NCBI GenBank assembly: GCA_964016885.1
Contig: OZ024755.1
Span: forward strand, 21,638,001 to 21,702,000
Source of the DNA: Eledone cirrhosa
Taxonomy: Eukaryota
DNA length: 64,000 nt
Reading direction: 5' to 3'
In this document: positions 20,030 to 49,407 of the stretch, in pieces
Position numbering within the stretch: position 1 is the stretch's first letter
How the letters are laid out: each line of letters opens with the position of its first letter
Program-made: the position numbers and the translations under genes
The notes under the pieces: generated by a model
The model's input: the letters and a program-made list of their open reading frames with translations, nothing else
Database searches by the model: none
Told to the model about the DNA's origin: nothing

Positions 20030-22095
<2,066 letters not shown>

Positions 22096-22250
22096 AGATA
22101 AATCTACCAAAAGTTTACGGTAGTGTCCAATCCGTATGAAGAACTCAATGTAATCCGGATATCATGAAACGATCGTAAAATGATGAATTTTTTTAATATA
22201 AGGAACTGTTTCTTTGTTTATTCATTATTTTATTAATTTATATATATATA

Positions 22251-22299
<49 letters not shown>

Positions 22300-22329
22300 A
22301 GATCAAAAGATGGTTAAAGGAGTTCCATG

Positions 22330-22398
22330 TATTTTATTATGCACATTTCAAAAACAAACATCATCATGCTATAATATGTGTTTTCATCAGATAAAACA
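22330..22398 (-). ncRNA. Type I hammerhead ribozyme (family HH-2, inverted copy)
   Basis: TGTTTTAT-CTGATGA-stem II-GAAA-TGTGCA-TA-ATAAAATA on the minus strand. Confidence 0.7.
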
Positions 22399-22611
22399 GG
22401 AGAACATGATATGAAGGCTAAAAAACACTTGTGGATAGTGCAGTTTTAAATCAACATATGTTGATAATATTTGTGTTTTCATCAGATAAAACAGGAGAAC
22501 ATGATATGAAGGCTAAAAAACACTTGTGGATAGTGCAGTTTTAAATCAACATATGTTGATTTAAAACTGCACTATCCACAAGTGTTTTTTAGCCTTCATA
22601 TCATGTTCTCC

Positions 22612-22682
22612 TGTTTTATCTGATGAAAACACAAATATTATTGCATGATGATGTTTGTTTTTGAAATGCGTATAATAAAATA
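22612..22682 (+). ncRNA. Type I hammerhead ribozyme (family HH-2)
   Basis: Stem I TGTTTTAT/ATAAAATA, CTGATGA 22620-22626, AT-rich stem II, GAAA 22663-22666, short stem III, predicted cleavage after A22674. Confidence 0.75.
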
Positions 22683-22805
22683 CATGGAACTCCTTTAACC
22701 ATCTTTTGATCTTATATATTATGTATACTCCAGTCCTACAAACTGTAGAGTGCTTCTTATCCGATATCTGCATTGCTTTATTGTACTACAATAAAACTCA
22801 CCTCC

Positions 22806-22846
<41 letters not shown>

Positions 22847-23526: not shown

Positions 23527-23906
23527 ATATATTTGTCTACTTCTTTGAAAGTAGAAAGTAATAGCAAGTTATATTTCCCCGTCTATTTTCAGGTACACAA
23601 CCATGTAAGAAGTGCGTGCAAACGAATGAATTCTCCCGTGTGCCATGTAGAACGTAATTTGTTTATATCAACTCAACTGACAGGTGTACAATGTCACAAT
23701 AACCGTCCTACAGTGTCACGAAACGACAGTACAACAACTGAATTACCAAACAAAAAGAAATTAGAAAGATGCGCCGAGGAACACACCTACATCCCTTTAC
23801 ATAAACTGAGAGATGAAACGTGTGAAGTCAATTGTAAAACTTAAATTAGGACTTGAAAATATTTGACCAAGAGACACAAATCAACCAAGAATTGAAAAAT
23901 ATTCAA

Positions 23907-24627
23907 GCTAATAATTGTTTCTACTTTAGGCACAAGGCCAGCAATTATCCAGTGCATTACTGGTACTTTATTTTATCAACCCCGTAAGGATGAAAGGCAA
24001 AGTCAACCTCGGCGAGATTTGAACTCAGAATGGCAAGGGCCGTAACTCTATGCGTCAAAAGCTAATAATTGTTTCTACTTTAGGCACAGGGCCAGCAATT
24101 ACCCAGTGCATTACTGGTACTTTATTTTATCAACCCCGTAAGGATGAAAGGCAAAGTCAACCTCGGCGAGATTTGAACTCAGAATGGCAAGGGCCGTAAC
24201 TCTATGCGTCAAAAGCTAATAATCGTTTCTACTTTAGGCACAAGGCCAGCAATTACCCAGTGCATTACTGGTACTTTATTTTATCAACCCCGTAAGGATG
24301 AAAGGCAAAGTCAACCTCGGCGAGATTTGAACTCAGAATGGCAAGGGCCGTAACTCTATGCGTCAAAAGCTAATAATCGTTTCTACTTTAGGCACAAGGC
24401 CAGCAATTACCCAGTGCATTACTGGTACTTTATTTTATCGACCCCGTAAGGATGAAAGGCAAAGTCAACCTCGGCGAGATTTGAACTCAGAATGGCAAGG
24501 GCCGTAACTCTATGCGTCAAAAGCTAATAATTGTTTCTACTTTAGGCACAAGGCCAGCAATTACCCAGTGCATTACTGGTACTTTATTTTATCGACCCCG
24601 TAAGGATGAAAGGCAAAGTCAACCTCG
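23907..24627 (-). repeat. Tandem array of 4.7 x 154-bp truncated family A SINE
   Basis: Units start at 23907, 24061, 24215, 24369 and 24523 and are near-identical. Confidence 0.95.
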
Positions 24628-34719: not shown

Positions 34720-35550
34720 TCAAATTGGAACCATCTGGAAAAGTTTTTCACATATCTGAAACTGGAAAGATTTATCCCCCGTGTGTGATCTCATATGTAC
34801 ATTAAGGCTAGAATTATGAGAAAAATTTTTGCCACATAGTTCACAATGAAATGGTTTTTCTTCATTATGGGTCCTCATATGTTTTGTTAAATGTGAATTT
34901 TGTGAAAACCCTTTACCACACACTTGACAACAAAATGGTCTTTCACCAGTATGTATTCGCATGTGTTTTGTTAGATGTGAATTTTGAGAAAAATCTTTTT
35001 CACATATCTCACAATGAAATGGTCTCTCTCCAGTGTGTGTTCTCAGATGTTGCGTGAGGTAAGAATTCTGAGAAAAGTCTTTACCGCAAACTTCACATAA
35101 GAAAGGTTTTACCCCAGTATGTATCCTTAGATGTTTATTCAGAGTAGAACCATCTGAAAAATCCCTTCCACATACACCACAAGAGAAAGGTCTTTCGCCA
35201 GTATGTGTCCTCATATGCTGTGTGAGATTAGAACTGTGAGAAAAATCCCTCCCACAAATTTCACAGTGGAAAGGTTTTTCTCCTGTATGTACTCTCATAT
35301 GTTTAGTTAGATTGGAACTTTCTAGAAAGTCTTTCCCACATACTCCACAGAAAAAGGGTCTTTCCCCAGAGTGTATTTTCATGTGTCTTGTAAGATTAAT
35401 GTTTCTTAAGAAGTCTTTACCACATGTATCACAATGGAAATGTATTTCCTCTGTTGTTGATCTCTCTCTTCCTTTTTCATTGTATTCCAATGGTGAATCA
35501 TTTTCTTCAACGTCACTGTGAAAAGAATCTTTTCCATTGCAAATTTCCAT
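34720..35550 (-). CDS. C2H2 zinc-finger protein, 8 tandem fingers (276 aa)
   Basis: Open frame with 8 CxxC-x12-HxxxH units and TGE(K/R)PF linkers. Probable upstream splice acceptor (tttccag) puts the exon start at 35832. Confidence 0.92.
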
Positions 35551-35607
35551 GTGCCCTCCAATAATCAGTAGAAAGGCTTTGTTCAGTATTTTACATTAAA
35601 TAACAAC

Positions 35608-44770: not shown

Positions 44771-45119
44771 GTTGATCATCTCAATTTTCATATGAGCTGG
44801 GACATAACAATTTATGAGATGTTGATGTGGGGTATGGTGCACGAGAGGTTGGGGACCACTGATCTAGTTGCTGCACTAGAAATATCCTATAGCTACAATA
44901 TAATCCCACTTTACATATTGTTGACTTGTATATGTTGCTGATATAGTTTGTTTAATTCTGTTTTGCAGATTGAGGCATTGGAAAGAATATAGTTACCCTG
45001 GAACTAAATAAAGCCAATTACATTGCAATGATTTCGAGGGTGAAAGACATTGATGATTTTCTTTGAAATTCACCTGGGATATCATATATATGAGAATTAT
45101 TTATTATAATTTCTAGGAA

Positions 45120-46346
45120 ATGTTTTCTTCACAAGACTGTGAGTCTTCAGAACCAGAGATACAATCTGACAAGAGATTATTTCCTTGTTCAACATGTGGC
45201 AAAAAATTCTTAAACAGAACTCATTTTAGTATACATCAAAGGACACATACAGGAGAAAAACCTTTCAGCTGTGAAAGTTGTGGTAAACAATTTTCCCAAA
45301 AATGTCATCTAATACAACATATACGAATTCATACAGGAGAGAGACCATATCATTGTGGTGCCTGTGAAAAGACATTTGTACAAAGTTCACATCTTAAAAA
45401 CCACTTTAAATCTCATTTAGGCGAATTCCCCTTTACATGTGAGATATGTGGTAAAGGGTTTTCAGAAAAGGAGGTTTTAAATGGACATATAGAAACACAT
45501 GAAAGAGAAAAATGGACTAAACAGAATATACTGACAAAGAATTCACTAAGTTCTCTTGTTAATATGGAATATATGATGTCCTGTCAAAAAGCAAATATTC
45601 CATGTTGTGAAGTTTGTGGAAAAGACTTTCCAACAGTTTCAAAGCTTAAAACTCATAAAAGATTTCATGTTAAAGAGAAAAGAGTCTCTTGTCAAATATG
45701 TGGGGGAAAATTTTTTAATGGATCTGATTTAAGTATTCATGTAAGAACACATACAGGAGAGAAACCATTTCATTGTGAGGTGTGTGGGAAAAATTTCTCA
45801 CAAAGCCCTCATCTTATACAACACATACGGATTCACACCGGTGAAAACCCTTTCCCCTGTGAGATATGTGGGAAAAACCTTTCTTCTAAATCACATTTAA
45901 AAATTCATAAGAGGTCACACACAGGAGAAAGACCATTTCATTGTCAAATATGTGGGGATTCTTTTTCATGTAGTTCTCATTTAAGTGCTCATATTAGGAT
46001 ACATACAGGAGAGAAACCCTTTAAATGTGATATATGCAAAAAATATTTTTCACAAAATTCCCATCTTACACAGCACAAGAGAATACATACTGGAGAAAAA
46101 CCATTTACCTGTAAAATGTGTGGTAAAAAATTTTCTTTAAAGTCTGGGTTGAAATTTCATCTGCAGAAACATTCATGTTCAAAGACACTTCATTGTGAAT
46201 TTTGTGAGAAAATATTTACAAATAATTTTCGTTTTTTACAACATAAAAGAACCCATACTAAAGAAAGACTTTTTCTCTGTGAAATATGTGGAAAGAAATT
46301 CTCTCAAAATTGTAATCTTAAATTACATATGAAAATACATTATTGA
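45120..46346 (+). CDS. C2H2 zinc-finger protein, 13 fingers in 4+9 arrangement (408 aa)
   Basis: Intact ORF with TGEKPF linkers; probable upstream acceptor ttttgcag|44969. Confidence 0.93.
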   Translation: MFSSQDCESSEPEIQSDKRLFPCSTCGKKFLNRTHFSIHQRTHTGEKPFSCESCGKQFSQKCHLIQHIRIHTGERPYHCGACEKTFVQSSHLKNHFKSHLGEFPFTCEICGKGFSEKEVLNGHIETHEREKWTKQNILTKNSLSSLVNMEYMMSCQKANIPCCEVCGKDFPTVSKLKTHKRFHVKEKRVSCQICGGKFFNGSDLSIHVRTHTGEKPFHCEVCGKNFSQSPHLIQHIRIHTGENPFPCEICGKNLSSKSHLKIHKRSHTGERPFHCQICGDSFSCSSHLSAHIRIHTGEKPFKCDICKKYFSQNSHLTQHKRIHTGEKPFTCKMCGKKFSLKSGLKFHLQKHSCSKTLHCEFCEKIFTNNFRFLQHKRTHTKERLFLCEICGKKFSQNCNLKLHMKIHY

Positions 46347-49340: not shown

Positions 49341-49407
49341 TATTTTATCTGATGAGGACGTACTGTTGAAGTTAGCTCAGTACCTCTGAAATATGTATTA
49401 TAAAATA
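49341..49407 (+). ncRNA. Type I hammerhead ribozyme (family HH-3)
   Basis: Stem I TATTTTAT/ATAAAATA, CTGATGA 49349-49355, stem II GGACGTACTG/CAGTACCTCT, GAAA 49388-49391, short stem III, predicted cleavage after T49399. Confidence 0.75.

What the first reader, a model, noticed from the sequence alone, without database searches (positions are those of the whole stretch)
22290..22810. Large palindromic element with hammerhead ribozymes on both strands, inserted in (TA)n
Seen: an inverted repeat centred at 22552/22553 with no spacer, whose left arm carries a ~95-bp tandem duplication. Complete type I hammerhead motifs lie at 22612-22682(+) and 22330-22398(-). Their stem III segments TGCGTA and TGTGCA each differ by one transition from the self-complementary TGCGCA. 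Known: Penelope-like pLTRs encode minimal type I hammerheads with palindromic stem III that cleave as dimers, and they often integrate with an inverted partial pLTR. Inference: a non-autonomous Penelope or retrozyme-like family able to self-cleave from either strand and form long dsRNA.
Basis: partly seen in the sequence, partly recalled or inferred. Interest (0 to 1): 0.72.

Follow-up and report, generated by a model that had tools for sequence, protein, structure and literature searches.

The report
Cap-stopped stub of Hydra Penelope retroelement
This palindrome is one of more than 1,500 short mirror-image insertions left in TA repeats by an abundant Penelope-like jumping gene, and its sister copies suggest it was likely made by copying the capped front end of an uncut RNA twice, whereas gene-bearing copies likely come from a continuous, probably circular RNA.

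Summary
Observation confirmed. It is not a separate non-autonomous family. It is two 5'-truncated ends (pLTRs) of a Hydra-clade Penelope-like element, joined head to head in (TA)n. The family has 11,783 exact hammerhead-core matches in this genome and ORF-bearing RT + GIY-YIG-type copies. Inverted pLTRs with a one-sided tail are known.

The copies add mechanism. 52 of 56 pairs have one short and one tailed end. Both arms share a haplotype (472 of 484 sites). At least 38% of copies start at one base, the palindrome centre, often after an untemplated G. None of 43 more-than-unit-length copies that reach that base stop there, against 38 of 87 arms of inverted pairs.

Best reading (inferred): reverse transcription starts at two internal sites. 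On capped, uncut RNA it runs off at the cap and gives this stub. On a continuous, likely ribozyme-made circular RNA it gives the ORF-bearing tandems. Each strand here has only one, decayed hammerhead, and read-through RNA would bury it in a hairpin. Cleavage and expression were not tested. The scan already noted similar stubs on other DNA of this genome.

The parts
22239..22290 (.). Left (TA)n target microsatellite
   Evidence: 122 of 125 element ends in the sample are followed by TA repeats
22291..22459 (-). Short arm: pLTR from the fixed 5' stop (arm position -1) to the short 3' end (arm ~170), no tail
   Evidence: 171 of 177 identical to the right arm
22330..22398 (-). Type I hammerhead motif, stem III TGTGCA (CpG-type transition), 2-nt deletion in stem II; predicted cut between 22338 and 22337
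22460..22463 (.). 4-nt linker at the first junction; fits a short fold-back or slip of the cDNA end (inferred)
   Evidence: similar linkers at other junctions
22464..22554 (-). Second, partial copy of the arm (positions -1 to 89, ends in the stem II loop); makes the 95-bp duplication; incomplete hammerhead
22551..22554 (.). Palindrome centre: both arms begin at the same base and overlap by ATAT; inferred capped transcription start of the element
   Evidence: 795 loci with this centre, 768 with 0-12-nt linkers; base counts
22551..22810 (+). Long arm: pLTR from position -1 to the tailed 3' end (arm 258)
   Evidence: 98.5% identical to the 5' pLTR of ORF-bearing copy L031
22612..22682 (+). Type I hammerhead motif: stem I 22612-19/22675-82, core 22620-26, long stem II, GAAA 22663-66, stem III TGCGTA; predicted cut after 22674
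22723..22810 (+). ~83-88-nt tail (limits blurred by TA homology); in full elements it is the start of the 5' UTR; opens with a bulged hairpin
22811..22846 (.). Right (TA)n target microsatellite

Best explanation
The element is two 5'-truncated ends of a Hydra-clade Penelope-like retrotransposon joined head to head in (TA)n, likely written in one event by the element's reverse transcriptase copying the capped front end of an uncut RNA twice. Shown: identity with the pLTR of ORF-bearing copies, two fixed 3' ends, one of each per insertion, a fixed 5' stop with extra G, and no stop at that base in more-than-unit-length copies. Inferred: (1) the endonuclease cuts both strands of (TA)n; (2) each DNA end primes synthesis at one of two internal RNA sites ~85 nt apart, each followed by a small hairpin; (3) on a linear capped transcript that starts in the pLTR and whose hammerhead has not cut, both cDNAs run to the cap, often add a C opposite it, and join through ATAT or a short linker, giving a ~430-bp stub like this one; (4) on transcripts with two pLTRs the hammerheads would pair through the palindromic stem III, cut out a unit-length RNA that is circularised, and the same two start sites then give ORF-bearing and tandem copies. 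This copy is likely inert debris.
For: Family and partner: 11,783 core matches; pLTR-ORF-pLTR copy L031 with a 3,513-bp period and an 818-codon frame in L034; 195 pLTR-to-5'UTR junctions; 19 of 68 sampled tandem arms have an ORF of 795 aa or more. One event, one template: 52 of 56 inverted pairs are short+tailed (p 5.5e-12 against 50%); 472 of 484 diagnostic sites agree within pairs against 63% expected, and 7 of the 12 misses are in one long+long pair; 34 of 35 classable pairs agree on stop versus read-through. Fixed 5' end: of 12,419 matches to the first 19 bases, 4,746 have a non-template base before them (2,329 G; 2,417 A or T, with A in 24 of the first 100 listed) and 5,068 read through. 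In the first 50 of 768 linker junctions (tallied by eye), 22 have a single C:G pair; in 26 longer linkers C is the first added cDNA base at 31 of 52 ends, where the template would give G; none continues the templated sequence. Two template classes: 0 of 43 tandem arms that reach position -1 stop there, against 38 of 87 paired arms (p 7e-9). Weak sign of cleavage: about 134 junctions begin exactly at the predicted cut against about 29 two bases upstream (26 of 50 vs 8 of 40 checked). Literature: internal initiation at two sites and extension of both target strands in vitro (PMC11167929); start site inside the pLTR (PMC2377424, PMC8557442); circle model proposed (PMC4209133).
Against: No RNA evidence for the start site, cap, cleavage or circle. 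The single C:G linker, the commonest one, can also be read as one templated base. AT microhomology inflates the cut-site count, and only one control position was used. Some arms that start at the cut site are paired with arms that pass through it. One pair is mixed and 4 of 56 are not short+tailed; 13 termini stayed unpaired and 21 pairs had an arm too short to class. In PMC11167929 ribozyme cleavage was not needed for insertion in vitro and no RNA-seq reads ended at the cut. No scar at the supposed ligation site (columns 121-122 conserved at 0.99). The hairpins are weak (-4 to -8 kcal/mol) and some variants break them. Samples come from the first listed matches on contigs C1-C3 and need exact motif matches, so they lean to young copies.
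Confidence: 0.65

Rival explanations
1. Same origin of the stub, but ORF-bearing copies come from linear full-length RNA: the cDNA jumps from the RNA 5' end to the 3' pLTR, like retroviral strong-stop transfer, or reads through long host-driven transcripts. No circle is needed.
For: Explains 0 of 43 stops in tandem copies equally well if the jump is efficient whenever a 3' pLTR is present. Ribozyme cleavage was dispensable in vitro (PMC11167929).
Against: Independent jumps should give many mixed pairs; 1 of 35 was seen. Read-through arms keep the template C at -2 (62 of 62; first 100 listed), with no cap scar.
Confidence: 0.17
2. One reading: the stubs are a self-propagating non-autonomous family, transcribed outward from the centre by an internal promoter and mobilised in trans.
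For: Stubs are very common; arms start at the inferred start site; D. virilis Penelope has promoter elements in the pLTR (PMC2377424).
Against: No stub-specific lineage: the main haplotypes occur in both classes. Centre junctions vary from locus to locus, so they are made afresh. Stubs lack the hairpin behind the tailed end, yet nearly all have one tailed arm. There are no tandem monomer arrays as in retrozymes.
Confidence: 0.12
3. The centre is only a microhomology or DNA-breakage hotspot (the 6-bp palindrome CATATG), not an RNA 5' end.
For: 795 loci join by the ATAT overlap; many T bases at -2 fit AT microhomology.
Against: It does not explain the untemplated C:G, the agreement between arms, or why tandem copies never stop there.
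Confidence: 0.05
4. Assembly or read foldback artefact.
For: A perfect 89-bp palindrome without spacer; no read spanning this locus was available. L095 has mirrored flanks and may be such a case.
Against: Arms are unequal and carry separate mutations, flanks are not mirrored, and the anatomy recurs at hundreds of loci.
Confidence: 0.01

Closest known systems
Hydra clade of Penelope-like elements (Craig et al. 2021, PMC8557442; section 11, passages and supplement searches read), including Hydra-1_Obim and Penelope-13_HM
   Same: C-terminal endonuclease, DKT, CxCX5C linker, CxxC and CxH, no CCHH, (TA)n targets, hammerhead in the pLTR; inverted 5'-truncated copy and one-sided tail are described for PLEs in general.
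   Different: A different family from Hydra-1_Obim: its listed hammerhead differs and our core motif was not found in the supplement. The unit is 3.5 kb rather than under 3 kb, the tail ~85 nt rather than 30-40, RWT replaces RWK. A fixed 5' stop with extra G was not in the passages read.
Poseidon element of Anolis (PAc; Frangieh et al. 2024, PMC11167929; parts 1-2 of 4 read)
   Same: Two internal start sites that define the tail, located at the pLTR-ORF junction; AT-rich target; both strands extended.
   Different: Other clade; hammerhead overlaps the ORF start there. The paper does not, in the parts read, split templates into cap-stopped and continuous classes.
PLE hammerheads (Cervera and de la Pena 2014, PMC4209133; parts 1-2 of 4 read)
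   Same: Type I motif, long helix II, short palindromic helix III, pairs on opposite strands 100-700 bp apart noted; circle model proposed.
   Different: Helix II opens here with A-U-rich, imperfect pairs rather than the conserved G10.1-C11.1 pair; no genomic test of the circle model was given there.
Metazoan non-LTR retrozymes (PMC7229834, passages; bioRxiv 10.64898/2026.07.22.740005, part 1 of 5 and passages)
   Same: Non-coding, hammerhead-bearing, PLE-related.
   Different: Retrozymes are head-to-tail monomer arrays with a hammerhead in each unit. This is a head-to-head pair of pLTR ends that match an autonomous element at 98%.
Untemplated 5' G of full-length LINE-1 insertions (bioRxiv 10.64898/2026.02.19.706876, one passage; its origin from the cap is recalled, not read)
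   Same: Extra G before the first transcribed base.
   Different: In LINE-1 it marks full-length copies; here it marks the shortest class and is absent from ORF-bearing tandems.

Membership tests
Penelope-like element (EN+) | Single ORF with RT and C-terminal GIY-YIG-type endonuclease in autonomous copies | tested here: met
   P0001 has FDI and YRDD RT motifs and an IYEC...YFG endonuclease motif, aligned with 11 of 59 homologues. Pfam gave no hit for P0001 and one weak GIY-YIG hit among 12 members.
Penelope-like element (EN+) | pLTRs from partial tandems, inverted 5'-truncated copy, tail at one end | tested here: met
   L031 structure; 52 of 56 pairs short+tailed
Hydra clade | DKT motif, CxCX5C linker, CxxC and CxH around E/N, no CCHH | tested here: met
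   Read from P0001 against PMC8557442 section 11
Hydra clade | RWK motif | tested here: inconclusive
   RWT in P0001; RWK or RWR in 9 of 11 aligned homologues
Hydra clade | (TA)n insertion preference | tested here: met
   122 of 125 termini
Hydra clade | Placement in the Hydra clade on an RT tree with named members | not tested
   Only compared by eye with Hydra proteins printed in the supplement
Type I hammerhead ribozyme | Core CUGANGA / GAAA / UH with stems I and II | tested here: met
   core columns 0.98-1.0 conserved in 100 arms, partly because the core was in the selection pattern
Type I hammerhead ribozyme | Covariation in stems | tested here: inconclusive
   Within the family only one-sided G-U/A-U changes; other hammerhead families in the same loci show different paired stem I sequences and the palindrome TATATA, but they were collected with a pairing filter
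Type I hammerhead ribozyme | Self-cleavage | not testable with these tools
   Only an indirect excess of junctions at the predicted cut
Non-LTR retrozyme | Head-to-tail tandem monomers, each with a hammerhead | tested here: not met
   Head-to-head arms; the duplicated 95 bp holds an incomplete hammerhead
Non-LTR retrozyme | Abundant small circular RNA | not testable with these tools

The most novel reading that the evidence does not exclude
This family keeps a genome-wide record of two RNA templates used by one Penelope-like enzyme: capped, uncut transcripts give strong-stop palindromes ending at the cap, and hammerhead-cut, circularised unit RNAs give all ORF-bearing and tandem copies. The hammerhead dimer would then be the switch between dead and productive insertions, and would explain how pLTRs are regenerated.
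Probability: 0.45. Interest if true: 0.72.

Novelty: new member of a known kind. Interest (0 to 1): 0.45.

Why it matters
The locus itself is ordinary transposon debris. How Penelope-like elements make tandem and inverted ends, and what their hammerhead is for, is still called open in the papers read (PMC2377424, PMC8557442, PMC11167929). This young, abundant family gives exact predictions: a capped start at one base, two initiation sites, a 3.5-kb circle joined at a named cut, and many intact ORFs for in vitro work. Literature searches listed no paper that, by title or abstract start, describes a cap-stopped class in PLEs; subscription papers were not searched and most hits were not read in full.

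Tried and rejected
1. An apparent link between the tailed arm and stem III TGCGTA (37 of 39) was query bias: unbiased arms are TGCGCA and genome counts are 30 vs 6,169.
2. Rfam found no hammerhead model among 56 weak matches; hits were miRNA-type hairpins below threshold.
3. Pfam and PDB sequence searches gave nothing firm for the ORF. The structure job did not finish, so no fold comparison was made.
4. No RNA holder listed among public runs. Laid contigs came from runs of unknown kind and none spans the whole locus.
5. The palindrome centre is not the ribozyme cut; it lies 123 nt upstream.
6. An RNA-structure stop at the centre was rejected because tandem copies pass it. A splice acceptor was rejected because no AG precedes it.
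7. The bacterial promoter scan is not applicable and was at chance level.
8. No ORF fragment of the element lies elsewhere in the window.
9. Earlier-finding look-ups by sequence and by words returned nothing.

Full report
Observation. The element reads: (TA)n, a short arm on the minus strand (22291-22459), a 4-nt linker, a partial second copy of that arm (22464-22554), and a long arm on the plus strand (22551-22810), then (TA)n. The long arm has a tail of about 85 nt that the short arm lacks. Arm positions below count from 22553 = 1, so the arm starts at -1, the predicted cut follows 122, and the two 3' ends lie at about 170 and at 258.

Family. The host is a 3.0-Gb animal genome; cephalopod-like is my inference from the assembly, the zinc-finger ORFs and an Argonauta homologue. 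A 29-mer of the hammerhead has 11,783 exact matches, with 0 for the reversed control. L031 is pLTR-ORF-pLTR with a period of 3,513 bp and frameshifts; L034 has an 818-codon frame, P0001, which lacks three residues of a conserved RT motif. The window's long arm is 98.5% identical to the 5' pLTR of L031. There are 195 exact pLTR-to-5'UTR junctions. I fetched 60 regions from that list; with six earlier arms this gave 68 arms, 19 with an ORF of 795 aa or more. P0001 carries DKT, CxCX5C, CxxC and CxH, lacks CCHH and has RWT for RWK, which fits the Hydra clade as defined in PMC8557442 section 11. The listed octopus member Hydra-1_Obim has another hammerhead. No tree was built.

Hammerhead. The family stem III is TGCGCA. 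The 8-mer dimerises at -10.5 kcal/mol; the window variants at -6.5 and -6.0, and -3.7 with each other. Each strand of the stub holds one complete sense motif. A read-through RNA folds into one hairpin of -299 kcal/mol that pairs the motif away. So this copy is unlikely to work as a double ribozyme (inferred). Cleavage was not tested.

Anatomy of insertions. I took 64 loci around the first 100 matches (contig C1; one region had no hit). 122 of 125 termini run into TA repeats. 56 head-to-head pairs were found: 52 short+tailed, 3 tailed+tailed, 1 short+short; 13 termini were unpaired. In 41 pairs with enough overlap, arms differ by 1.1% within and 3.9% between pairs, and 472 of 484 diagnostic sites agree against 63% expected. 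Both arms therefore come from one RNA or one source, in one event (inferred). This matches the in vitro finding of two internal start sites and extension of both target strands for an Anolis element (PMC11167929). A similar small hairpin follows each end by 4-6 nt (a lead from earlier notes); the second one exists only where the tail runs into the 5' UTR.

The centre is a fixed 5' stop. Of 12,419 exact matches to the first 19 bases of the arm, 5,068 continue into the upstream template, and 4,746 have a base other than the template C before them: 2,329 G and 2,417 A or T (A in 24 of the first 100, by eye). 795 loci have the window's exact centre and 768 have both arms complete with a 0-12-nt linker. 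In the first 50 of those 768 (by eye), 22 linkers are one C:G pair, one is one A:T pair, one is empty and 26 are longer; in the longer ones the first added cDNA base is C at 31 of 52 ends, G at 9, A at 9, T at 3, and none continues the template. An untemplated 5' G is noted for full-length LINE-1; that it copies the cap is recalled knowledge. PLE start sites lie in the pLTR. I infer a capped start at -1. The single C:G linker alone could also be one templated base.

Two template classes. Among the 56 pairs, 20 read through -1 on both arms, 14 stop on both, 1 is mixed, and 21 have an arm too short to class (p 2.7e-9). Among 68 more-than-unit-length arms, 43 pass -1 (42 by script plus L151), 25 end before it, and none stops there (p 7e-9 against 38 of 87). 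So ORF-bearing tandems are not copied from a linear RNA that ends at -1. The simplest source is the unit-length circle proposed in PMC4209133; an efficient template jump or long read-through RNAs are rivals. Stop and read-through arms share their main haplotypes, which argues against a separate non-autonomous lineage. Both arms of the stub run across the intact cut site, so its template was uncut or re-ligated.

Sign of cleavage. 258 copies break from the template exactly at the cut against 144 at a control two bases upstream. Of those inspected, 26 of 50 and 8 of 40 are true junctions, about 134 against 29. AT microhomology confounds this, and it is about 1% of arms. It is a hint only.

The 95-bp duplication. 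It reads as a full short arm, a short fold-back, and a restart at arm position 89. Similar rearrangements at the centre occur in L082, L088 and L100. A later slippage cannot be excluded.

Against my reading. There is no RNA evidence. In the Anolis system cleavage was not needed and no reads ended at the cut. No ligation scar was seen. Samples lean to young copies on three contigs. bioRxiv supplements were closed and could hold related structures.

Verdict. A new family of a known clade, with a known kind of insertion; the locus is likely inert. The scan had noted similar stubs elsewhere in this genome; I had the cap reading before seeing the note that states it. The added value here is the contrast between stubs and tandem copies at the same base. 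Interest 0.45.

Noticed in passing
window 22095-22238: Another TA-flanked repeat directly beside the element; its two halves recur in other loci, sometimes in opposite orientation, like a second two-armed stub family.
   Followed up: partly
window 21255-21482, 249-387 and 2250-2468: A further TA-flanked repeat with copies in several fetched loci at 72-96% identity.
   Followed up: partly
window 49343-49405 (+) and about 20479-20521 (+): Two more type I hammerhead-like motifs from other families; the first has stem III TATGTA and lies ~45 nt before a TA repeat.
   Followed up: no
fetched loci, e.g. L005, L020, L028, L081, L085: 26 distinct hammerhead motifs of several other families, mostly with the palindrome TATATA in stem III, turn up near copies of this family.
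   Followed up: partly
L197/L198 (G000:C1:244900703-244900750): A miniature palindrome whose two arms both begin at the predicted hammerhead cut.
   Followed up: partly
L007:1-978, L034:8929-9999, L035:2-880: ORF pieces of other Penelope-like families next to copies of this one.
   Followed up: no
L095: Short+short pair with identical flanks on both sides; a larger inverted duplication or an assembly foldback.
   Followed up: no
window 34723-35595 (-) and 45117-46343 (+): C2H2 zinc-finger ORFs; whether the element lies in an intron was not determined.
   Followed up: no
window 23905-24627: 154-bp tandem repeat, 4.7 copies at 98%.
   Followed up: no
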